The notes under the pieces were generated by a model that was not told the DNA's origin, searched no databases, and saw nothing but the letters and a program-made list of their open reading frames with translations. A DNA stretch of 44,371 bases, taken from Escherichia phage 6949. Below, piece after piece: positions 17,929 through 29,184 of this stretch. The stretch is from the sequence record OL362273.1; one strand, 5' to 3'. Numbering within the stretch: position 1 is the stretch's first letter; each line of letters begins with the position of its first letter. The position numbers and the translations under genes are program-made.

Positions 17929-18133
17929 AGTCAGTAAGGTTTGCTCTTGCGGTAAAGGTTATCGCAGTCGTATTGATGGTAAGTGTGGACATTGTAGGTC
18001 TAAGAAAGAGGCTGCTTTGTTTGACAAGTACCACAATGAATTAGCCTATAACTACCCACATCTAACACCTAATTCTTTATTAGGGCTTGGTTATAGAGCT
18101 AAATACTTTGGAGCAATCTATGAAATCAATTGA
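17915..18133 (+). CDS. Small Cys-rich (zinc-ribbon-like) protein
   Basis: ATG 17915 follows RBS GAGG and is in frame within track ORF 17888-18133. The protein has a CSCG...CGHC motif. Confidence 0.5.
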   Translation: MKTIKVSKVCSCGKGYRSRIDGKCGHCRSKKEAALFDKYHNELAYNYPHLTPNSLLGLGYRAKYFGAIYEIN

Positions 18134-20666
18134 TTGGAAGAAGGAGGCAGAAGGTCGTATCCTCGTGATGGATGCGGAAGCTAAAGGACTCCTTGACGCT
18201 ATCCGATATGGACACCGTGAAGATGTGCATATCATTTGCTGCATGGATTTGCTTACTACCGAGGAGTTTCTCTTCTTTGACCCGTATGAGATGCGCGACC
18301 CTGAGGCAAGGGAACGCCTGAAGGAGTGGGAAGGCCACCAAGACGGAACCTTGATTGATGGTGTTAACTTCCTGAAGCATTGTGAAGCTATTGTGTCACA
18401 GAACTTCCTAGGGTATGACGGACTTCTCTTTGAGAAAGCATTCCCTGATATTTGGAAAGGCTTTAACTATACCGAGAAGCGCGGTAAGGGCAGACTCCGT
18501 GCTGACCTGTGTCCGGTGCGAGTCATGGATACGCTGGTGATGAGTCGCCTGTTAAACCCCGATAGACGCCTTCCTCCGCAAGCATATGCCAAAGGTATGG
18601 GTAACGTCGCCCCTCACTCAATTGAGGCGCACGGCATCCGTATAGGTCGCTATAAACCGGAGAACGAGGACTGGTCTAAACTAACTGACCACATGGTTCA
18701 CCGTGTACGTGAGGACGTGGCGATTGGTCGTGACTTGTTCCTCTGGCTCTTTAACGGGGAATGGATGGAGCACAAACGCCGTGGCGTGAATAAACGCACG
18801 GGCCTAGGCATTGAGACAGCCTTCCACATGGAGTCCATTGTGGCGCTGGAGATGAGCCGTCAGGCCGAGCGTGGGTTCCGTCTGGACATCGACAAGGCTT
18901 TGGCCCGATGCGAAGAATTGGACGCTAAGATTGATGAGACAGTCGCAGCGTTCCGCCCTCACATGCCTATGCGTATCAAGTCTAAACCTTTTAAACCGGA
19001 AGAAAAGAATGAAGTATGCCAACGCGCAAATGAGTATGGAGCTAGCAACAATATACCTACTGTCCTTGACCCCTCACACTTTCTTCATGCCGAGAGACGA
19101 GGAGATCGCAAGACAGTATGGAGTGTCACTACTAAGTCTGGTGATTGGTCGGCTAGTGTCAAGAAAGACTTTCCTCACCTTAGAGGAAACCGTAATGACA
19201 CGCCAAGCATCAAGTGGATTGGCGCTTACTCGCCTGTTACTTTCGAAGAGATTCCCTTGGGTAACAGGGATACAGTTAAGCAAGTGCTCTATGATTATGG
19301 ATGGAAAGGTGTTGAATTTAACGATACCGAGCAAGCGCATCTCGATGAGCACGGAGTGTTACCCAAACCTTGGAGTGGTAAGATAAATGAAAAGTCCCTT
19401 ACTTTATGGCAAGAAAGAGCCGCACGTGAAGGTAAAACAGTCCCTGATTGGTGCTTGGGTATCGCTGCATGGTACATACTCGTATCCCGTCGTGGTCAGA
19501 TACTCAACCGTGGTGACGTTGAAGCCTTCAACGAGAAGGGAACGTGGCCCTCGCAGGCTGGTGTACGAAAGTGTCGCGGCCTTGTACCTGTAGCATTCAA
19601 CAAGGAGCTAGGAATCAATGCGCAGCAATACTACGAGAGGTACGGATGTTGGCCTACGTCTGACAAAGATGACGGAGAGTGGCGTGTTCCAGCTGTTGCT
19701 ATTAGCATTGGCACTTCTACGTTCCGTATGCGTCATCGTAACGTGGTCAATATTCCTGCCCGTGGCTTGTATCCTTTACGTGATTTATTCATAGCAGGGA
19801 AAGGCAAGCTAATCCTTGGTTGTGACGGTGCAGGTCTTGAACTGCGTGTCCTGTCTCACTTCATGAATGACCCTGAGTACCAAGAGATTGTACTGCACGG
19901 TGATATTCATACGCATAACCAGATGAAGGCTGGTCTTCCTAAGCGTGATATGGCGAAGACGTTTATATACGCCTTCCTCTATGGCTCTGGTATAGCCAAC
20001 CTTGCAGCAGTATGTGGTGTTACTGAGGAAGAAATGAAGGAAGTTGTGGCAAGATTCGAGATTGAACTGCCGTCTCTTGCACGTCTTCGTGAGAATGTTA
20101 TCGCACAAGGTAACAAGTTTGGCTACCTGCAAGCACCTGATGGGCATTGGGGTCGCATCCGCATGTCTGGTGGTGAACTTAAAGAGCACACGATGCTTAA
20201 CGTATTACTCCAGATGACTGGCTCTTTGTGTATGAAATATGCATTAGTCAAGGCATTTGCAGTAATGCGCAAGGAAGGTGTAGCTTTGGATGCTATGGGA
20301 AATCCTTGTGGTGTGGCTAACGTGCATGATGAAATCCAGATGGAAGTTCCTGAAGAGGAGGTCTTGTATCTTAACTACGACCTACCTTTCACCTTAGATG
20401 GGTTCGAAACAGAGAAGGCTGCTGTGAAAGCAGTTTTCGATGCAGAGGAGAAACGTGTTCATGTGGATTCTGAAGGACGTATGTGGTCTGCTGCAAACCT
20501 CGTTAGCGTTGATGCTGATGCTGGTGTGTTGCATTGCCAGCGCCGTTATCACCGTGCAGGTCATATCATTGCCGACGCCATGACTTGGGCAGGGCAGTAT
20601 CTGAAGATGCGTTGCCCGATGGCAGGAGAATATAAGATTGGCGCAAGCTGGAAGGAAACACACTGA
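18120..20666 (+). CDS. DNA polymerase, family A (T7 gp5-like) with 3'-5' exonuclease domain
   Basis: The N-terminus has the Exo I motif (VMDAEAKG). The polymerase motifs are GCDGAGLELRVLSHF, KTFIYAFLYGSG and VHDEIQ. ATG 18120 follows RBS GGAG; the track start at 18087 is a TTG. Confidence 0.93.
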   Translation: MKSIDWKKEAEGRILVMDAEAKGLLDAIRYGHREDVHIICCMDLLTTEEFLFFDPYEMRDPEARERLKEWEGHQDGTLIDGVNFLKHCEAIVSQNFLGYDGLLFEKAFPDIWKGFNYTEKRGKGRLRADLCPVRVMDTLVMSRLLNPDRRLPPQAYAKGMGNVAPHSIEAHGIRIGRYKPENEDWSKLTDHMVHRVREDVAIGRDLFLWLFNGEWMEHKRRGVNKRTGLGIETAFHMESIVALEMSRQAERGFRLDIDKALARCEELDAKIDETVAAFRPHMPMRIKSKPFKPEEKNEVCQRANEYGASNNIPTVLDPSHFLHAERRGDRKTVWSVTTKSGDWSASVKKDFPHLRGNRNDTPSIKWIGAYSPVTFEEIPLGNRDTVKQVLYDYGWKGVEFNDTEQAHLDEHGVLPKPWSGKINEKSLTLWQERAAREGKTVPDWCLGIAAWYILVSRRGQILNRGDVEAFNEKGTWPSQAGVRKCRGLVPVAFNKELGINAQQYYERYGCWPTSDKDDGEWRVPAVAISIGTSTFRMRHRNVVNIPARGLYPLRDLFIAGKGKLILGCDGAGLELRVLSHFMNDPEYQEIVLHGDIHTHNQMKAGLPKRDMAKTFIYAFLYGSGIANLAAVCGVTEEEMKEVVARFEIELPSLARLRENVIAQGNKFGYLQAPDGHWGRIRMSGGELKEHTMLNVLLQMTGSLCMKYALVKAFAVMRKEGVALDAMGNPCGVANVHDEIQMEVPEEEVLYLNYDLPFTLDGFETEKAAVKAVFDAEEKRVHVDSEGRMWSAANLVSVDADAGVLHCQRRYHRAGHIIADAMTWAGQYLKMRCPMAGEYKIGASWKETH

Positions 20667-20782
20667 TGGATAGGCTTGACATTATTTGCCTATTCTTCAC
20701 TCTCTTTCTTACACTCCTTATGCTTGCTTGTTATGGGAGTATGAGACTAGATATACCTGATGAAGAAGAGGGTTACGACTAA
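20666..20782 (+). CDS. Tiny hydrophobic peptide (38 aa)
   Basis: The ATG overlaps the polymerase stop (TGATG). The peptide has one transmembrane-like helix and ends ..GYD. It is below the track cutoff. Confidence 0.35.
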   Translation: MDRLDIICLFFTLFLTLLMLACYGSMRLDIPDEEEGYD

Positions 20783-20880
20783 TGCAAACTGCTTTTATTA
20801 TTCTTGGTATCATATTATTTATGGTAGTATTCTGGGCTTTCTCTGGCATTGACCCAGATTGTGATGGTAACTACGACTGA
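20782..20880 (+). CDS. Tiny hydrophobic peptide (32 aa)
   Basis: The ATG is coupled to the upstream stop through TAATG. The peptide has one transmembrane-like helix and ends ..NYD. It is below the track cutoff. Confidence 0.35.
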   Translation: MQTAFIILGIILFMVVFWAFSGIDPDCDGNYD

Positions 20881-20939
20881 GTTATACTCAAGGTCACTTA
20901 CGAGTGGCCTTTATGAATAACTTAACTGGAGGAAATATA

Positions 20940-21497
20940 ATGAATGAACTGAACACTAAGATGCTCAAGAAAGTTTATAATCTTGTATATAGTATCACGG
21001 GCCTACAATTCTACCCTGTAGGCGGTGCGGTTCGTGACACCCTGTACGGATTAACACCTAAAGACTATGATATGGTGTTGCCTGTAGGGTCTATGGCAGA
21101 TTCTCAGGCGCACGAAATCATGGAAAATATCTCTGAAGAGATGGCAATTATGGGATTTAGTACCAAACTCTACCAATCATACGGTATCAATTTAGGTTAT
21201 GAAATCAACCCTACCTCTTTTCAGGCTATGTTCCTTAGCTGCATGAAAGTGCAGATGCGTAATTGCCAACTTGATTTGCTTCTTTCTAAGGCTGAAACCA
21301 TCCAAGATCATGTACGTAAGCACGATTGCAATATGAATATGGTGTGGTTCGATGGTAAAGATATCAAGTGGGAGCACGGCGGTGTTACTCCTTTCGTTCC
21401 TGTGTTAGAGTTCAACCCTGACGGATGTGATCGTCGCATTGCTTACATGGACAAGAAGCGCCATGAACTTATCCGTCACAAATTAATGCATCTTTGA
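20940..21497 (+). CDS. Minimal nucleotidyltransferase, CCA-adding enzyme / poly(A) polymerase head-domain-like
   Basis: RBS GGAGGA lies 6 nt upstream of ATG 20940. The motif FYPVGGAVRDTLYGLTPKDYDMVL matches the class II tRNA nucleotidyltransferase signature GGxVRD...D.D. At 185 aa it has no room for the usual body and tail domains. Confidence 0.65.
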   Translation: MNELNTKMLKKVYNLVYSITGLQFYPVGGAVRDTLYGLTPKDYDMVLPVGSMADSQAHEIMENISEEMAIMGFSTKLYQSYGINLGYEINPTSFQAMFLSCMKVQMRNCQLDLLLSKAETIQDHVRKHDCNMNMVWFDGKDIKWEHGGVTPFVPVLEFNPDGCDRRIAYMDKKRHELIRHKLMHL

Positions 21498-21519
21498 TTT
21501 ACCGGACACTATAGAAGGA
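21497..21519 (+). promoter_or_regulatory. SP6-type phage promoter
   Basis: ATTTACCGGACACTATA followed by GAAGGA; the predicted +1 G is at 21514. Confidence 0.8.
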
Positions 21520-21583
21520 AGTCCTAGGTAATCTAGGTTTATAAGGTAGTATAGGTAATTAAGTAAATATAGGAGATATAAAC

Positions 21584-21961
21584 ATGTCTATGGTAACTAC
21601 TCTGGTATTTGTAGCTCAATACTTTCGTGGTCTGGCTAATAAGTTCAAGTCCAAGGCTATCAAAGCTATTGAGTCTCGCATCGAGGCAGTACAGGCAGAG
21701 CAAGTTAAAGTTGAAGAGCATCGTAGTTCTCAAATGATTGACTGCCATAACCGCTACTATGCATCTCGTGATGACCTTAATGCACGCCAAGTCAAAGAGG
21801 TTGAAGAGATGCTGGCACGTCACCAGCAAGAGCGCGACAGCCTGAAAGCTGAATTTGAAGAGAACAAGGCATCCATCGCCCTTGTACATCAAGCCGCATC
21901 TGACAACCTGAAGAAGGAGATTGTTATGCTGGAAATTGAGTTAGACAACCTGACCAAATAA
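21584..21961 (+). CDS. Hypothetical protein with N-terminal hydrophobic segment and coiled-coil region
   Basis: RBS AGGAG precedes the ATG. The protein has hydrophobic MSMVTTLVFVAQYF followed by a heptad-like charged helix. Confidence 0.6.
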   Translation: MSMVTTLVFVAQYFRGLANKFKSKAIKAIESRIEAVQAEQVKVEEHRSSQMIDCHNRYYASRDDLNARQVKEVEEMLARHQQERDSLKAEFEENKASIALVHQAASDNLKKEIVMLEIELDNLTK

Positions 21962-21982
21962 TTACTGGACACTATAGAACAA
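21960..21982 (+). promoter_or_regulatory. SP6-type phage promoter
   Basis: AATTACTGGACACTATA followed by GAACAA; the predicted +1 G is at 21977. Confidence 0.8.
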
Positions 21983-22038
21983 TAGGTCGGCTTAGTTCGG
22001 CCTATGATTGTGTAGTGTAACAACAGGAGACTAAATAA

Positions 22039-24849: not shown

Positions 24850-25244
24850 AATCATCGGAGGTAGCAGCTTATAAGAGGGAATTGCTAGAGAAGCAAGGAT
24901 GGAAGTGCCCCCTATGTGGCGGCAGTCTCAAGGCTGTTACTCCTATAAACCGTGTACTTGACCATGACCATGAGACAGGATTCTGCCGTGCTGTTGTATG
25001 CCGAGGCTGCAATGGTGCAGAAGGAAAGATTAAGGGTGTTATCTCTGGTTATGGTAAGGCTGGTAACAACCGTTACTTCCAGCTTCAATGGTTAGAGCGA
25101 CTATATGAATACTGGAAGTTACATAGTACGCCTCAGACAGATAAGTTATATCACAAACACCAAACGGAGGCAGAGAAGCGCGAGGCTAAGAACCGTAAGG
25201 CACGCCTTGCTTATGCAAGAAAGAAGGAGGTTAAAGTTGGGTAA
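24834..25244 (+). CDS. Endonuclease VII-like Holliday junction resolvase
   Basis: The motif CPLCGG...LDHDHETG...RAVVCRGCNGAEG matches the T4 endonuclease VII zinc/HNH-like core (C.IC...LDHDHE...RGLLC.LCN.AEG). Confidence 0.8.
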   Translation: MVSKLKSSEVAAYKRELLEKQGWKCPLCGGSLKAVTPINRVLDHDHETGFCRAVVCRGCNGAEGKIKGVISGYGKAGNNRYFQLQWLERLYEYWKLHSTPQTDKLYHKHQTEAEKREAKNRKARLAYARKKEVKVG

Positions 25245-26244
25245 GCTTCGCAGCTTGTACAAAGACTCCGAGGTACTTGATGCAATCGAGCAAGCTACCG
25301 ACGAGAAAGGTAATGTTAATTACAATGAGATGGCACGTGTATTATCGTGTCACCCTGTGGGTAAGAAGATTACCCGCCAGTTGGCTCGATACTGGCATGG
25401 TCAATTCAAGAAGACCAAGAAGAATGGTGATTATTACCAGACCCTTCTGCAAGAAGATAAGCGTATCAAAGAAGAGCGTAAGCTCAGGACTCCTGACCGC
25501 TACGAGGATTTGGCTATTGTGCCATTGCCTGACTCGCCTCATCGAAGTGTACTGGTGATCCCTGATACTCATGCACCTTATGAGCACCCAGATACCCTAG
25601 AGTTCCTTGCAGCCGTGGCAGCACGTTACCGTCCAGACACAGTGGTACACCTAGGAGATGAGGCAGACAAACATGCCTTGTCATTCCACGATTCGGACCC
25701 AAATCTGGATAGTGCTGGAATGGAGTTAGAGAAGGCTCGTATCTTCATGCACAAATTGCACAAGATGTTCCCTGTGATGCGCCTATGTCACTCCAACCAC
25801 GGCTCTATGCACTTCCGTAAGGCAAGCGCCAAGGGTATTCCAGTGCAATATCTTCGCACCTACCGTGAAGTCTTCTTCCCAAATGGAGGTGGCGACCAGT
25901 GGGATTGGCAGCATACACATGTTCTTGAGTTGCCGAATGGCGAACAGGTGGCATTCAAGCATCAACCTGCTGGCTCTGTCCTAGCAGATGCAGCGCATGA
26001 GCGTATGAACCTTGTGTGTGGTCACTTGCACGGTAAGATGTCTGTGGAGTACGCACGTAATACACATGAACAGTATTGGGCTGTGCAAGGTGGCTGCTTA
26101 ATTGATGAGTCATCCCGTGCATTTGCCTATGGGCGTGAGTCTAAATACAAGCCAGCATTAGGTTGTGTGGTTATTCTGGAGGGTGTACCTCATATTGTCC
26201 CGATGCAAACCAATAGCGACAACCGTTGGATTGGCAAGATTTAG
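25237..26244 (+). CDS. Calcineurin-like metallophosphoesterase
   Basis: The ordered motifs are PDTH (DxH), HLGDEAD (GDxxD), SNHG (GNH-like) and GHLHG (GHxH). I prefer the TTG start at 25237 because it follows RBS AAGGAGGT; the longer track ORF from 25105 overlaps the endonuclease VII gene. Confidence 0.7.
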   Translation: MGKLRSLYKDSEVLDAIEQATDEKGNVNYNEMARVLSCHPVGKKITRQLARYWHGQFKKTKKNGDYYQTLLQEDKRIKEERKLRTPDRYEDLAIVPLPDSPHRSVLVIPDTHAPYEHPDTLEFLAAVAARYRPDTVVHLGDEADKHALSFHDSDPNLDSAGMELEKARIFMHKLHKMFPVMRLCHSNHGSMHFRKASAKGIPVQYLRTYREVFFPNGGGDQWDWQHTHVLELPNGEQVAFKHQPAGSVLADAAHERMNLVCGHLHGKMSVEYARNTHEQYWAVQGGCLIDESSRAFAYGRESKYKPALGCVVILEGVPHIVPMQTNSDNRWIGKI

Positions 26245-26261
26245 TTGACACTATAGAACAA
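26239..26261 (+). promoter_or_regulatory. SP6-type phage promoter
   Basis: ATTTAGTTGACACTATA followed by GAACAA, which is very close to the canonical SP6 promoter. Confidence 0.8.
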
Positions 26262-26344
26262 AGGGCTAGATAAGACTTTATCGGCTGGCGTATCCAAATG
26301 ATATTGCACTAGCCCTTGATTGTATAGTGAATGGAGGATTCAAT

Positions 26345-26848
26345 ATGTCACACTATGAATGTAAGAAGTGTCATAAGCGTTATGATTACTGTACTTGTGG
26401 TCAAGAGAAAACATCTTTTAAAGTTGGAGACAAGGTATTTCGTAATGAAAAAGATTCTATTCCTTGGAATCAATTCTGCAAAGAAGCTGGTATTGACCCT
26501 GATAGCCCTGTAACCATAGATGATATTGATGGCATTAACTTGTGCTTTCGTGAGGTGAGGGGTACAGGTTGGGATTCCAAAAAATTCAAACTTGCATCTG
26601 ATAAGTTAGACAACAATATGGTAACTCAGCCTAAGCACTACGAGTTCTTTGATGGTGTAGAGGCAATCACTATCATTGCCCGCAGTATGACTGAAAAGCA
26701 ATTCGCTGGGTACTGCATGGGTAATACCCTTAAGTATCGCCTGCGTGCAGGTAAGAAGTTCAATACTGAAGAAGACTTGAAGAAGGCAGACTATTATAAA
26801 GAGTTATTCCAGAAGCATCGTCACGAATGTATTGATGAGGATATTTAA
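26345..26848 (+). CDS. Hypothetical protein with N-terminal Cys cluster and a conserved phage domain of unknown function
   Basis: ATG 26345 follows RBS GGAGGA; the track start is a GTG. The N-terminus has CKKCHKRYDYCTC, and the C-terminal block reads PKHYEFFDGVEAITII....F..YCMGNTLKYRLRAGKK. Confidence 0.6.
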   Translation: MSHYECKKCHKRYDYCTCGQEKTSFKVGDKVFRNEKDSIPWNQFCKEAGIDPDSPVTIDDIDGINLCFREVRGTGWDSKKFKLASDKLDNNMVTQPKHYEFFDGVEAITIIARSMTEKQFAGYCMGNTLKYRLRAGKKFNTEEDLKKADYYKELFQKHRHECIDEDI

Positions 26849-26849
26849 T

Positions 26850-27023
26850 ATGGAAGGTAAACTGTATAGAGGGTACTTCGGTAACTTATATAAAGTAAGC
26901 TCTCGCGGTTTTGTATTGACCTCTGATGATGAAGGTGCAATGTGGCACCTAAGTGCATATGGTTCTAACTTAGCACACTTTAAAGAGGCAATAGTCAAAG
27001 GTGTGATGAAGGAGGTGAAATGA
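26850..27023 (+). CDS. Small hypothetical protein (57 aa)
   Basis: ATG 26850 is coupled to the upstream stop and is in frame within track ORF 26832-27023. Confidence 0.45.
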   Translation: MEGKLYRGYFGNLYKVSSRGFVLTSDDEGAMWHLSAYGSNLAHFKEAIVKGVMKEVK

Positions 27024-27967
27024 ACATCTTCCAATTCCTAGGTCTTCCAGAAGACCACCGCAATCATCCATTCATGCTGGTGAAGCATCGCGGTGAAGTT
27101 CCTGAGAAGAAATTAACTTTTCCATGTTATGCACAGGTGAAACGAGATGGAATATTCAGTGCTGTTGTGGTGCGTAATGATGGTGTTGTTGCCATCTTTG
27201 GTCGTACTGGTAAGAAGCTCGCAAATGTTGAAGCCTTGGAAAAGACATTTAGTGTATTTCCTGTCGGGTTGTATCTTGGTGAGTTGCAATCTATGGCTGT
27301 TGATGTTTATCTTGAAGCTCTGTCAGGAGTGGTAAACCCTAATCGTACAGAGCCACTTGATTTCATAGGGCAGCAGATTAAAGACAACCTATATATCGAC
27401 TTCTTCGATATGTTAACCATTAAGGCATTCCATGATGGATTCACTGATGTTTCTTATCTCAAACGTTACGATGCTTTACATCGTCGCATCGGCACTCATC
27501 TTAGCGGGTACAACGCTATTCTTCCTATTACTCCTTGCCATAATGAGCGAGAGGTTGAAGCGTTTGCTCAAGAGCAAATAGATGCAGGCAGAGAAGGTGC
27601 GGTATTTAAACTTGACGTGGAGTACGAAAGTGGGCACAAGGGCTATCGTCAAACGAAGATTGTTCGTATGGTATCTTATGACCTCACCTGCATTGGGTGG
27701 GAGGAAGGAAAAGGTAAGTATAAAGGTAAAGTAGCTAATTTAATCTTTAAATGGAAAGGTGGTAAGTCCGTTAAGGCTATGCTGGGGCGTGGCTGGTCAC
27801 ATGAGGATGCAGCACAGATGTATCACGATATTAAGCACGGTGGCGAACTAAACGTCATTGGGAAAATCTTCGCTGTTAAGGCGTTACAGGAATCTAGTAA
27901 GGGAGTCCTGAGACTCCCCAAGGTTTCTGAACTTAGGTTTGATAAGGAAGTCCCTGATGTCTTCTAA
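27020..27967 (+). CDS. ATP-dependent DNA ligase (T7 gp1.3-like)
   Basis: RBS AAGGAGGTG precedes the ATG. The adenylation motif I is present as KRDG (AQVKRDGIFSAV), together with EGAVFK. The size fits phage ligases. Confidence 0.9.
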   Translation: MNIFQFLGLPEDHRNHPFMLVKHRGEVPEKKLTFPCYAQVKRDGIFSAVVVRNDGVVAIFGRTGKKLANVEALEKTFSVFPVGLYLGELQSMAVDVYLEALSGVVNPNRTEPLDFIGQQIKDNLYIDFFDMLTIKAFHDGFTDVSYLKRYDALHRRIGTHLSGYNAILPITPCHNEREVEAFAQEQIDAGREGAVFKLDVEYESGHKGYRQTKIVRMVSYDLTCIGWEEGKGKYKGKVANLIFKWKGGKSVKAMLGRGWSHEDAAQMYHDIKHGGELNVIGKIFAVKALQESSKGVLRLPKVSELRFDKEVPDVF

Positions 27968-28442
27968 TCCAAATTATCGAAAACCACCTCGTACACCGCC
28001 AAGACCACTTGCCTACTGTCCTTTTACTGGAAAGCTTTTCCGTAAGTTCAAAGATGGCTGGAGAGAAACAGGACTTAGCAGAAAGAGTGATGGATATTTA
28101 CAGTATAAAGTCGATGGTAAGACTGTAAGTGTTCATGTTTTAGCAATGAATATGATGGGTTATGACACTACCGGCTTTACAGTAGATCACATAAATCATA
28201 TACGCTGGGATAATAGGTTTATTAATCTACGTCTACTATCTCATAAAGATAATTGTTTAAATAGAGAGGCGATACATACAAGTAAGCTGCCGAGTGGTAA
28301 CTACAGAGCGCGATGTGGAAATGTTCATCTTGGCGTATTTGAGGATAAGTTACTTGCTCGTGGTGCTATCCTATGGTATCGCCATAGGAGATTTAATAAT
28401 GTTAAATTCAATGAAGGCAACGCGTGCCGTAGAAGTAGCTGA
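27957..28442 (+). CDS. HNH homing endonuclease
   Basis: The motif SVHVLAMNMMGYDTTGFTVDHINHIRWDNRFINLRLLSHKDN is an HNH signature. The ORF overlaps both neighbours, as a compact insertion would. Confidence 0.8.
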   Translation: MSSNPNYRKPPRTPPRPLAYCPFTGKLFRKFKDGWRETGLSRKSDGYLQYKVDGKTVSVHVLAMNMMGYDTTGFTVDHINHIRWDNRFINLRLLSHKDNCLNREAIHTSKLPSGNYRARCGNVHLGVFEDKLLARGAILWYRHRRFNNVKFNEGNACRRSS

Positions 28443-28597: not shown

Positions 28598-28726
28598 ATG
28601 GAGATGCTTGAGATGATTCTCAAGCCTTCTTCTCCTAAGGTGACTAAGACTCATGAAGAGTTAATCGTTGATGAGGTTAAGCGTTACATCATGGATTGTG
28701 TCAGAGCACAACTGGTGATCCAATGA
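28598..28726 (+). CDS. Small hypothetical ORF (start uncertain)
   Basis: Several in-frame ATGs (28598, 28604, 28613) lie near a GAAGGA/GGAG RBS. The stop overlaps the GNAT start (ATGA). Confidence 0.3.
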   Translation: MEMLEMILKPSSPKVTKTHEELIVDEVKRYIMDCVRAQLVIQ

Positions 28727-29184
28727 TACGTCCAGCTTCCTTCCTAGATATTCCTGAGATTATAAACCTTGGGAATAAATATGTGGAAGAGGAAGTCAAG
28801 GTTGTAGCCCACCACTCAGCCTCATGGAATGCAGAACAAAGTGCACATAACCTTTGTGCATCTCTTAGTAGAGAAGATTTATTCCTATGGGTTGCTGTAG
28901 ATGAAGGGCAGATTGTAGGGTTCCTGTGGGCTGGCTATCACGAGTTGGCCCCTTGGACACCTGTAAGAGTTGCCTCTGACATTCTCTTTTATATTATACC
29001 AGAGAGGCGAGGAACACTTCTTGGTATGCGTCTCATCAAAGCCCTAAAGCAATGGGCTAGTGATAATGAATGCTCTGAGGTTCGCCTGTCTATCGCCTCT
29101 GGTATTAATGAAGAACGTGTCGGACGTATGTATAAGCGACTTGGCTTTGAACCGTTTGGCACTGTGTATAACATGAAGTTCTAA
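28723..29184 (+). CDS. GNAT family N-acetyltransferase
   Basis: The acetyl-CoA binding motif A is present (QIVGFLWAG ... RRGTLLGMRLIKALKQWA), followed by the RLGFEP motif. ATG 28723 is coupled to the upstream stop. Confidence 0.72.
   Translation: MIRPASFLDIPEIINLGNKYVEEEVKVVAHHSASWNAEQSAHNLCASLSREDLFLWVAVDEGQIVGFLWAGYHELAPWTPVRVASDILFYIIPERRGTLLGMRLIKALKQWASDNECSEVRLSIASGINEERVGRMYKRLGFEPFGTVYNMKF

What the first reader, a model, noticed from the sequence alone, without database searches (positions are those of the whole stretch)
20940..21497. Minimal CCA-adding / poly(A)-polymerase-like nucleotidyltransferase in the anti-host slot after the DNA polymerase
The 185 aa protein carries FYPVGGAVRDTLYGLTPKDYDMVL, which matches the class II tRNA nucleotidyltransferase head-domain signature (GGxVRD followed by the two catalytic Asp, here DYD). 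It has no room for the body and tail domains of a cellular CCA enzyme. It sits with two tiny membrane peptides and a coiled-coil membrane protein between the DNA polymerase and SSB-like genes, the region where T7 keeps host-takeover genes. It could repair or modify the 3' ends of tRNA or other RNA, for example to counter host nucleases that clip tRNA, or it could act on host RNA in the manner of nucleotidyltransferase toxins. The genome also encodes a metallophosphoesterase (25237-26244) and an ATP-dependent ligase (27020-27967), which together would supply end-healing and sealing activities, but that link is speculative.
Basis: partly seen in the sequence, partly recalled or inferred. Interest (0 to 1): 0.75.

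Follow-up and report, generated by a model that had tools for sequence, protein, structure and literature searches.

The report
Head-only tRNA-nucleotidyltransferase-like phage enzyme
This E. coli phage carries an optional 185-residue gene that is just the catalytic "head" of the enzyme family that builds the CCA tail of tRNAs; it belongs to a phage-only protein family that has been catalogued before, but nobody has shown what it does.

Summary

It belongs to a phage-only family of stand-alone 165-230-aa proteins (PHROG 1614; 231 phage records). Evseev et al. 2020 described this family as the "tRNA nucleotidyltransferase" of Autographiviridae, so the kind is known. Its function is untested.

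The catalytic carboxylates, motif A and the Asp/Asn of motif B are near-invariant. Everything that makes a CCA-adding enzyme specific is missing: the EDxxR base template (0/70), the flexible loop (17 residues versus 35-43), and the neck, body and tail. The family is acidic (median pI 5.1).

In Vectrevirus the gene is a single-gene cassette between a conserved hairpin and a phage promoter, present in about 6-8 of 90 relatives. The proposed link to the phosphoesterase and ligase is unsupported, because these are core DNA-replication genes.

Best reading: an active, stripped-down terminal nucleotidyltransferase that needs a partner. The acceptor is unknown; an RNA/tRNA 3' end is most likely.

The parts
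20940..21497 (+). CDS, 185 aa: stand-alone class II nucleotidyltransferase head domain (PHROG 1614 family)
20928..20933 (+). Shine-Dalgarno GGAGGA, 6 nt before the ATG
   Evidence: Read directly from the sequence. The same RBS region precedes the alternative 86-aa gene in ULINTec7.
21021..21071 (+). Motif A: G28 G29 x V R32 D33 ... K41 D42 Y D44 (NTP/metal binding, two catalytic Asp)
   Evidence: G28, G29, D42, D44 in 70/70; D33 68/70; R32 63/70; K41 62/70 in the divergent alignment A2. Aligns to GGAVRD...DxD of CCA enzymes and PAP I.
21273..21275 (+). D112, inferred third catalytic carboxylate, on strand 110-116 (LDLLLSK, compare class II EVTTFR / EYALAR)
   Evidence: D in 68/70 plus E in 2/70. 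It lies on the third strand after helix B of the model, the position of the third carboxylate in class II heads (PMC3925840). The assignment is inferred from topology and conservation, not from a superposition.
21321..21338 (+). Motif B remnant H128 D129 C N M N133 (class II RRDxTIN)
   Evidence: D129 68/70 and N133 68/70. Position 128 is F 47, H 20, Y 3 and never Arg. Aligned to RRDFTINA / RRDLTINA by hmmsearch and hhalign.
21429..21491 (+). C-terminal helix (residues 164-184) with R166, M170, K173; aligns to the first neck helix (motif D helix) of class II enzymes but lacks the ED of EDxxR
   Evidence: Helix 164-184 in the model. R166 69/70, K173 55/70. ED at -4/-3 of R166 in 0/70 and D at -3 in 4/70. 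hhalign places N159-P160 on the E-D of E. coli Cca EDPLRVLRVARF.
20878..20924 (+). Conserved RNA hairpin forming the left border of the variable cassette (core stem 20890-20911 with UACG loop)
   Evidence: MFE -17.3 kcal/mol, z = -3.6. Identical in relatives with an empty slot or a different gene. Its function (processing site?) was not tested.
21497..21519 (+). SP6-type phage promoter ATTTACCGGACACTATAGAAGGA, overlapping the stop codon; right border of the cassette
   Evidence: One of 10 matches to GACACTATAGAAG in the window against 0.03 expected. Conserved in all compared relatives.
18120..20666 (+). Context: family A DNA polymerase, co-transcribed upstream gene (no phage promoter between it and the transferase)
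   Evidence: ORF. Annotation of the 99.7% identical phage 6948. Promoter positions.
20666..20880 (+). Context: two tiny hydrophobic peptides (38 and 32 aa), conserved whether or not the transferase is present
   Evidence: PHROG 15860 and 4539. KD 2.8-2.9. Present in VEc3 and ULINTec7.

Best explanation
The gene encodes a catalytically active, stripped-down terminal nucleotidyltransferase. It is the head domain of a class II (CCA-adding / PAP I type) enzyme plus one helix of the neck.

Shown: the fold, and the near-invariance of the metal-binding Asp triad, motif A and the Asp/Asn of motif B.

Inferred: it binds an NTP and transfers NMP to a 3'-OH by the usual two-metal mechanism. Because it has lost the protein template for C/A, the flexible loop that switches C to A, and every tRNA-measuring domain, it cannot be a self-sufficient CCA-adding enzyme. 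It probably adds one kind of nucleotide, or has relaxed specificity.

Because the family is acidic and has no nucleic-acid-binding module, the acceptor must be presented by something else, either a host or phage protein or a pre-formed complex. I commit to an RNA 3' end as the most likely acceptor, in particular damaged or uncharged host tRNA ends. On this view the gene is an optional, host-dependent fitness or counter-defence factor expressed together with the replication genes.
For: Fold and family:
- PHROG 1614 E=2.7e-39 and Pfam PolyA_pol head at threshold.
- AF2 pLDDT 91.
- hhalign 96% to PcnB and 92% to Cca.

Active-site conservation across 70 sequences at 17-76% identity:
- D42 and D44 70/70, D112 68/70 (+2 Glu), G28 and G29 70/70, D33 68, R32 63, D129 68, N133 68, R166 69.
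- Purifying selection, dN/dS 0.13-0.18.
- A coherent stand-alone family: 211 representatives, nearly all 165-230 aa, and 231 phage records.

Loss of CCA-specific parts:
- ED of EDxxR in 0/70.
- Third carboxylate to motif B distance is 17 residues, versus 35 in Cca and 43 in PcnB.
- The protein ends 14-39 residues after R166.
- D and R of EDxxR are irreplaceable for CCA/A repair (PMC11784652). Body and tail bind the acceptor/T-psi-C helices, and the loop is needed for A76 (PMC3925840).

Accessory status:
- The cassette is present in 6 of 90 relatives by DNA. The slot is empty or otherwise filled in the others.
- Host-biased distribution (PMC7693777).

tRNA-tail cleavage is now a demonstrated immune strategy with no known viral answer (PMC12851939).
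Against: - No biochemical or genetic data exist for any member.
- The family is acidic: median pI 5.1, and 69/70 are below 7. The PAP I head has pI 9.8. There is no RNA-binding module.
- No partner gene is conserved next to it across lineages, and no gp5.5 (tRNA-binding) homologue is detectable in this window.
- All hosts already have a full Cca, and the phage has no tRNA genes.
- The Arg residues of motif B (RRD) are not conserved, so even ribo- versus deoxy-nucleotide preference cannot be inferred.
- The persistent position next to the DNA polymerase, with 4-nt overlaps in three genera, would fit a replication-linked role equally well.
Confidence: 0.4

Rival explanations
1. It is a genuine, self-sufficient tRNA CCA-adding (or A-adding) repair enzyme, as many GenBank annotations say ('tRNA nucleotidyltransferase').
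For: Closest sequence and fold relatives are CCA-, CC- and A-adding enzymes. Public annotation and Evseev et al. use this name.
Against: - The EDxxR template is absent (0/70), the flexible loop is deleted, and there is no neck, body or tail. D and R of EDxxR are irreplaceable in selection experiments.
- The protein is acidic.
- The phage has no tRNA genes, and the host encodes Cca.
Confidence: 0.08
2. It is a poly(A)-polymerase-like enzyme that tails host (or phage) RNAs to change their stability, as a host-shutoff or nucleotide-recycling device.
Confidence: 0.1
3. It works with the replisome. It extends or mends the 3' ends of RNA primers (for example tRNA ...ACCA-3' ends, which can prime T7 DNA synthesis), or it tails DNA 3' ends.
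For: - The gene is always in the replication module. It is adjacent to the DNA polymerase, or separated from it only by tiny ORFs, in 10 of 12 sampled lineages and on either side of it.
- It has 4-nt overlaps with the polymerase gene in Drulisvirus (two phages) and Pektosvirus, and a 20-nt overlap in Wanjuvirus.
- tRNA can prime T7 lagging-strand synthesis, and T7 gp5.5 sequesters tRNA (Zhu et al. 2012, as summarised in PMC11506809).
Against: - The genes flanking gene 5 in T7-like phages are the classic slots for non-essential host-interaction genes (established T7 knowledge), so adjacency may only reflect where insertions are tolerated.
- Gene order is strongly inherited in this family, so the 12 lineages are not independent.
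- The gene is dispensable: most Vectrevirus lack it.
- No interaction was tested.
Confidence: 0.12
4. The acceptor is not a polynucleotide. The enzyme nucleotidylates a host protein (as MNT antitoxins AMPylate HEPN toxins) or makes or modifies a small nucleotide, acting as an anti-defence enzyme.
Confidence: 0.18
5. It is a MenT/AbiEii-like toxin that blocks host translation by extending tRNA acceptor ends.
Against: The match is far weaker than to class II enzymes. There is no PADLOC hit and no antitoxin-like neighbour in the single-gene cassette. A lytic phage needs translation.
Confidence: 0.04
6. It is an inactive remnant or a non-catalytic binding protein.
For: It has lost most domains of its ancestors. 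R32 of GGxVRD is Val in some close relatives.
Against: The carboxylates and Gly-Gly are invariant across 70 divergent sequences, and dN/dS is about 0.15.
Confidence: 0.03

Closest known systems
Short 'tRNA nucleotidyltransferase' family of Autographiviridae (PHROG 1614; Evseev et al. 2020, PMC7693777)
   Same: This is the family the protein belongs to: full-length profile match (E=2.7e-39), same length, and the same place in the replication module. BFVD models of members from Providencia, Pectobacterium, Yersinia, Dickeya, Aeromonas, Vibrio and Pseudomonas phages superpose over the whole chain (TM 0.6-0.85).
   Different: It is rare in Escherichia phages (4 of 231 records). In Vectrevirus it is an optional cassette and is annotated only as 'hypothetical protein'. 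No member has a tested function.
Class II CCA-adding enzymes (E. coli Cca; G. stearothermophilus 1MIV; human 1OU5)
   Different: - No EDxxR base template and no flexible loop (17 versus 35 residues).
- No remaining neck, no body, no tail.
- 185 versus about 400 aa.
- An extra insertion of about 30 residues with conserved Y81 between DxD and the third carboxylate.
Bacterial poly(A) polymerase I (PcnB, 3AQL)
   Different: PAP I keeps EDPVR, the neck/body and a basic RNA-binding C-terminus. Its head is basic (pI 9.8), whereas the phage family is acidic (pI about 5).
Class II CC-adding enzymes (A. aeolicus AaS, 3WFO)
   Different: CC-adding enzymes retain the Asp/Arg template and the full neck, body and tail.
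Stand-alone 'CCA-adding enzyme head domain' protein NP_344798.1 of S. pneumoniae (PDB 2LA3, 191 aa)
   Different: It is bacterial, and it shows no detectable sequence similarity to the phage family (absent). It is a weaker structural match than the full-length enzymes.
MenT nucleotidyltransferase toxins
   Same: Small stand-alone NTases that act on tRNA 3' ends.

Membership tests
Class II nucleotidyltransferase head domain (Pfam PF01743 PolyA_pol) | Motif A: GGxVRD followed by the DxD metal-binding pair | tested here: met
   GGAVRD...KDYD at residues 28-44. G28, G29, D42, D44 are invariant in 70 divergent relatives. Pfam 23.5 bits against a cut-off of 23. Profile versus PDB CCA enzymes E=1e-7.
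Class II nucleotidyltransferase head domain (Pfam PF01743 PolyA_pol) | Third catalytic carboxylate on the beta-sheet | tested here: met
   D112 (68/70 D, 2/70 E) lies on strand 110-116 of the model, in the LDLLLSK context that resembles EVTTFR. The position is inferred from topology; there was no coordinate superposition.
Class II nucleotidyltransferase head domain (Pfam PF01743 PolyA_pol) | Head-domain fold (five-stranded sheet with two helices) closest to class II enzymes | tested here: met
Class II nucleotidyltransferase head domain (Pfam PF01743 PolyA_pol) | Motif B RRD(x)TxN | tested here: inconclusive
   D129 and N133 are conserved in 68/70 and align to the D and N of RRDxTIN. The two Arg are not conserved; position 128 is F, H or Y and never R.
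CCA-adding / A-adding enzyme (tRNA nucleotidyltransferase) | Motif D EDxxR amino-acid template in the neck | tested here: not met
   hhalign puts N159-P160 on the E-D of Cca. ED at -4/-3 of the conserved R166 occurs in 0/70 and D at -3 in 4/70. D and R are irreplaceable in class II enzymes (PMC11784652).
CCA-adding / A-adding enzyme (tRNA nucleotidyltransferase) | Flexible loop between the third carboxylate and motif B (needed for A76 addition) | tested here: not met
   Spacing is 17 residues (16-19 across the family), versus 35 in E. coli Cca and 43 in PcnB. The role of the loop is from PMC3925840.
CCA-adding / A-adding enzyme (tRNA nucleotidyltransferase) | Body and tail domains that bind the acceptor/T-psi-C helices and the tRNA elbow | tested here: not met
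   The protein ends 19 residues after R166, and the family is 170-226 aa. The model ends with a single helix, 164-184.
CCA-adding / A-adding enzyme (tRNA nucleotidyltransferase) | Adds C, C, A (or A) to tRNA 3' ends | not testable with these tools
   This needs an in vitro assay or the RNase T / LCCR4 complementation system.
Bacterial poly(A) polymerase I | Neck/body plus basic C-terminal RNA-binding region; basic catalytic head | tested here: not met
   No such region exists in the 185-aa protein. The family median pI is 5.1, versus 9.8 for PcnB residues 40-230.
Autographiviridae short NTase family (PHROG 1614) | Full-length profile match and stand-alone length of about 165-230 aa | tested here: met
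   E=2.7e-39 over residues 19-174. 211 representatives of that length. BFVD full-length matches with TM up to 0.85.
Autographiviridae short NTase family (PHROG 1614) | Located in the DNA-replication module near the DNA polymerase | tested here: met
   274 nt downstream of the polymerase stop in the window. The same module in 12 sampled lineages.
MenT / AbiEii nucleotidyltransferase toxins | MenT/DUF1814-type NTase paired with an antitoxin; defence-system profile match | tested here: not met
CD-NTases (CBASS cyclases) | cGAS/DncV-like fold with its C-terminal helical domain; CBASS profile match | tested here: not met

The most novel reading that the evidence does not exclude
The head-only enzyme is the missing viral answer to immunity that clips tRNA 3' tails (Cas12a3-type or other tail-cutting nucleases). 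Having shed the C/A template and the tRNA ruler, it would re-extend tRNA ends that the host Cca cannot accept, for example by restoring the discriminator position. Alternatively it would work as a catalytic subunit borrowed by a host or phage tRNA-binding protein, after which host Cca completes the tail. A more radical variant that the synteny does not exclude: the same chemistry supplies ...ACCA-3' RNA ends as primers for the adjacent DNA polymerase.
Probability: 0.15. Interest if true: 0.8.

Novelty: new member of a known kind. Interest (0 to 1): 0.45.

Why it matters
tRNAs are now recognised as a main battlefield between bacteria and phages, and cleavage of the universal CCA tail has just been shown to be an immune mechanism for which no viral countermeasure is known (PMC12851939). 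A widespread phage-only family derived from the very enzyme that rebuilds that tail is an obvious candidate, yet it has never been assayed.

This window offers a convenient test bed. It is a K1E/K1-5-like E. coli phage in which the gene is a clean single-gene cassette, and natural near-isogenic relatives lack it.

Whatever the acceptor turns out to be, the protein is also of enzymological interest. It is a natural minimal class II nucleotidyltransferase that keeps the catalytic core but has discarded the template, the specificity-switch loop and the tRNA ruler.

If it proves to be a simple redundant repair enzyme, the finding is ordinary.

Tried and rejected
1. Link to the phosphoesterase and ligase as an RNA heal-and-seal pathway. 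Rejected: the block 25237-27967 occurs in 94 related records, including those without the transferase. The ligase has DNA-ligase domains, and the phosphoesterase weakly resembles the DNA-damage enzyme PdeM.

3. Informative domain fusions among longer relatives. None: the longer hits are ordinary class II enzymes with the PolyA_pol_RNAbd domain, or have no Pfam match at all.

4. A conserved partner gene. The small ORFs next to the gene in Drulisvirus, Eracentumvirus and Maculvirus are unrelated to each other and absent from the window. No gp5.5 homologue is detectable in the window by tblastn.

5. A systematic synteny test through the viral contig collection. The alignment A2 was too divergent to scan. 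With A1, only 6 of 80 loci were the short family, and the rest were long canonical enzymes of larger phages. Synteny therefore rests on 12 hand-checked lineages.

7. Literature. Ten searches found no experimental study of any family member. Zhu et al. 2012 and Betat et al. 2010 are not held and are cited only through papers that summarise them.

8. The phage encodes no tRNAs, so maturation of phage tRNAs is excluded.

9. Base composition gives no strong sign of recent foreign origin (GC 42.1% versus 45.0%).

Full report
**Observation.** A GGAGGA Shine-Dalgarno lies 6 nt upstream, and all homologues begin at the equivalent Met. The ATG at 20940 is therefore the start, not the GTG at 20904. Pairwise dN/dS against relatives at 91% and 74% identity is 0.18 and 0.13, so this is a functional gene.

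**Which genome, and what kind of slot.** The window is a Vectrevirus (K1E/K1-5-like, SP6 group, Autographiviridae), 99.7% identical here to Escherichia phage 6948, where the gene is annotated 'hypothetical protein'.
- Of 90 related records that match the flanks, only 6 cover the gene. tblastn finds 8 records with at least 90% identity.
- In VEc3 the slot holds about 30 nt. In ULINTec7 it holds an unrelated 86-aa gene of unknown function.
- The variable segment is bounded on the left by a conserved, stable RNA hairpin (20878-20924; -17.3 kcal/mol, z -3.6).
- It is bounded on the right by an SP6-type promoter (21497-21519) that overlaps the stop codon. This is one of 10 such promoters in the window.
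- There is no promoter between the DNA polymerase and this gene, so it is co-transcribed with the polymerase (inference).
- The closest relative over the phosphoesterase-ligase block (LI10P3, 98%) lacks the gene, whereas the gene-bearing T205P5 is only 95.8% identical there. This indicates mosaic exchange.
- The phage has no tRNA genes.

**Fold and family.**
- Pfam PolyA_pol head domain matches at its threshold (23.5 bits against 23) and only over the first half. NCBIfam and PDB sequence searches see only motif A.
- PHROG 1614 'nucleotidyltransferase' matches over residues 19-174 at E=2.7e-39.
- An AlphaFold2 model built on 24 homologues is confident (pLDDT 91, pTM 0.86).
- Profile-sequence comparison with genuine E. 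coli sequences gives 96% probability for PcnB and 92% for Cca.
- PADLOC has no match.

**The family is already known.**
- A search of 1.84 billion cluster representatives finds 211 relatives, almost all 165-230 aa.
- tblastn finds the gene in 231 phage records: Pectobacterium 59, Klebsiella 57, Vibrio 44, Aeromonas 24, Proteus 16 and only 4 Escherichia. Nearly all are 40-46 kb Autographiviridae, and many are annotated 'putative nucleotidyl transferase', 'tRNA nucleotidyltransferase' or 'poly A polymerase'.
- BFVD models of members superpose over the full length.
- Evseev et al. 2020 (PMC7693777) reported the gene in 37 of 46 Pectobacterium Autographiviridae and in 60 of more than 500 others. 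They noted HMM and model similarity to CCA enzymes, found no bacterial homologues, and left the function open. A 2021 review repeats this.
- Ten literature searches found no experimental work on the family.

**Anatomy compared with class II enzymes.** The comparison uses 70 relatives at 17-76% identity to the window protein.

Conserved positions:
- G28, G29, D42 and D44: 70/70.
- D33: 68/70. R32: 63/70. K41: 62/70.
- D112: 68/70, plus 2 Glu.
- D129 and N133: 68/70 each.
- Y81: 65/70. R166: 69/70. K173: 55/70.

D42, D44 and D112 are read as the metal-binding triad. D112 lies on the third strand after helix B, as the third carboxylate does in class II heads. This assignment is inferred, since no coordinates could be superposed. 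D129 and N133 align with the D and N of motif B RRDxTIN. However, the residue before D129 is F, H or Y and never Arg.

The C-terminal helix (164-184) aligns with the first neck helix of Cca, which carries motif D. The E-D of EDPLR falls on N159-P160, and no register gives a conserved acidic residue three positions before R166 (ED 0/70, D 4/70).

Spacing:
- Third carboxylate to the motif B Asp: 17 residues (16-19) in the family, against 35 in Cca and 43 in PcnB. The flexible loop is therefore deleted.
- DxD to the third carboxylate: 70 residues against 36-39. This is an insertion of about 30 residues that carries Y81.
- The chain ends 14-39 residues after R166.

According to PMC3925840, the neck Asp/Arg pair reads the base, the loop is needed for A76 addition (and is shorter in CC-adding enzymes), and the body and tail bind the acceptor/T-psi-C helices and the elbow. 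According to PMC11784652, the D and R of EDxxR cannot be replaced. The phage protein therefore keeps the chemistry but none of the devices that give CCA specificity.

**Charge.** The family is acidic: median pI 5.14, 69 of 70 below 7, median net charge -7. This resembles the Cca head (pI 5.5), which relies on other domains for tRNA binding. It is unlike the PAP I head (pI 9.8). An autonomous RNA- or DNA-binding enzyme is therefore unlikely, so a partner or a non-polynucleotide acceptor is needed (inference).

**Synteny.** In 12 sampled lineages the gene is always in the replication module.
- Just downstream of the polymerase: Vectrevirus and six SP6-like metagenomic contigs, Eracentumvirus, Drulisvirus (4-nt overlap in two phages), Novosibovirus and Maculvirus.
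- Just upstream of the polymerase: Aerosvirus, Wanjuvirus (20-nt overlap), Pektosvirus (4-nt overlap) and Cyclitvirus (neighbour confirmed as family A polymerase).
- Two to three genes away: Ningirsuvirus and Kotilavirus.

These rest. The pattern fits either a functional tie to replication or simply the known tolerance of the gene-5 flanks for accessory genes. In T7 these flanks hold genes 4.3-4.7 and 5.3-5.9, which are host-interaction genes (established knowledge). Because gene order is inherited, the lineages are not independent. No partner gene is shared across lineages, and no gp5.5 homologue is detectable in the window.

The phosphoesterase and ligase are core genes. They are present in 94 records, including those without the transferase. 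The ligase has DNA-ligase domains, and the phosphoesterase weakly resembles the DNA-damage enzyme PdeM. Co-occurrence gives no support to a heal-and-seal pathway with the transferase. MenT-like and CBASS-like readings are poorly supported.

**Mechanism.** It is shown that this is a conserved, selected class II head domain with an intact catalytic centre. It is inferred that it transfers NMP from NTP to a 3'-OH by two-metal catalysis, without the C/A template and without a tRNA ruler, and that it needs a partner to hold its substrate.

I commit to RNA, and above all host tRNA 3' ends, as the most likely acceptor. I commit to an optional host-dependent (counter-defence or fitness) role, with confidence 0.4. 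The rivals and their confidences are:
- a non-polynucleotide acceptor: 0.18
- a replisome-linked role: 0.12
- PAP-like tailing: 0.10
- true CCA addition: 0.08
- a MenT-like toxin: 0.04
- an inactive remnant: 0.03

The demonstration in 2026 that Cas12a3 stops phage by cutting tRNA tails, with viral resistance 'yet unknown' (PMC12851939), makes the tRNA reading timely but does not prove it. tRNA ...ACCA ends can also prime T7 DNA synthesis (Zhu et al. 2012, via PMC11506809). This keeps the replication variant alive.

**Verdict.** It is a new (Escherichia/Vectrevirus) member of a known but functionally uncharacterised phage family. Interest is moderate. The family is not a surprise to specialists, but its function is an open and now topical question, and this phage offers natural near-isogenic controls.

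Noticed in passing
window 20878-20924 (+): Stable, conserved RNA hairpin (9-bp core stem with UACG loop inside a longer interrupted stem; -17.3 kcal/mol, z -3.6). It starts at the stop codon of the 32-aa peptide gene and is identical in relatives with or without the transferase. It may be an RNase III-type processing or stabilising element that also serves as a recombination border.
   Followed up: partly
window 278, 2383, 4047, 16564, 17255, 21505, 21968, 23114, 26247, 31890 (+): Ten copies of the SP6-type promoter core GACACTATAGAAG/C (0.03 expected by chance). The one at 21497-21519 overlaps the stop codon of the transferase gene.
   Followed up: partly
It has no Pfam or PDB sequence match and only a weak sub-threshold NCBIfam hit to a phage replication-initiation family (E 7.7e-4). 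Its C-terminus is very acidic and ends in an aromatic residue (...DEDAEY). Its identity remains unverified.
   Followed up: partly
window 25105-26244 (+): The metallophosphoesterase shows weak, sub-threshold similarity to PdeM, the 'ligase-associated DNA damage response' phosphoesterase (E 1.4e-4). It lies two genes upstream of the DNA ligase, which hints at a DNA-end rather than an RNA-end function.
   Followed up: no
window 27939-28442 (+): An HNH_3 endonuclease ORF (Pfam E 8e-9) whose start overlaps the last 29 nt of the DNA ligase gene. It is probably a homing endonuclease.
   Followed up: no
window 28696-29184 (+): A 162-aa GNAT acetyltransferase (Pfam Acetyltransf_1, E 4e-10) in the replication/early-middle region. 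Its target is unknown.
   Followed up: no
window 25237-27967 compared with 20600-22000: Mosaicism: the closest relative over the phosphoesterase-ligase block (Vectrevirus LI10P3, 98%) lacks the transferase, while the transferase-bearing T205P5 is only 95.8% identical there.
   Followed up: partly
L023, L027, L030, L035, L036, L044 (IMG/VR contigs); P0084, P0089, P0122: Very long ORFs (about 1,300-1,980 aa) in viral contigs carry a class II nucleotidyltransferase head. Some proteins match the family profile in up to 4 separate stretches. Their architecture and function were not examined.
   Followed up: no
P0002, P0003 (76% and 74% identical homologues): Their precomputed annotation lists Pfam PF26128.2, an accession absent from the local Pfam copy, so what that family is called could not be established.
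   Followed up: partly
L091 3001-3462 (Proteus phage PM 75, NC_027363.1 9989-10450): The transferase homologue lies directly after the DNA polymerase and is not annotated at all in this RefSeq record.
   Followed up: no
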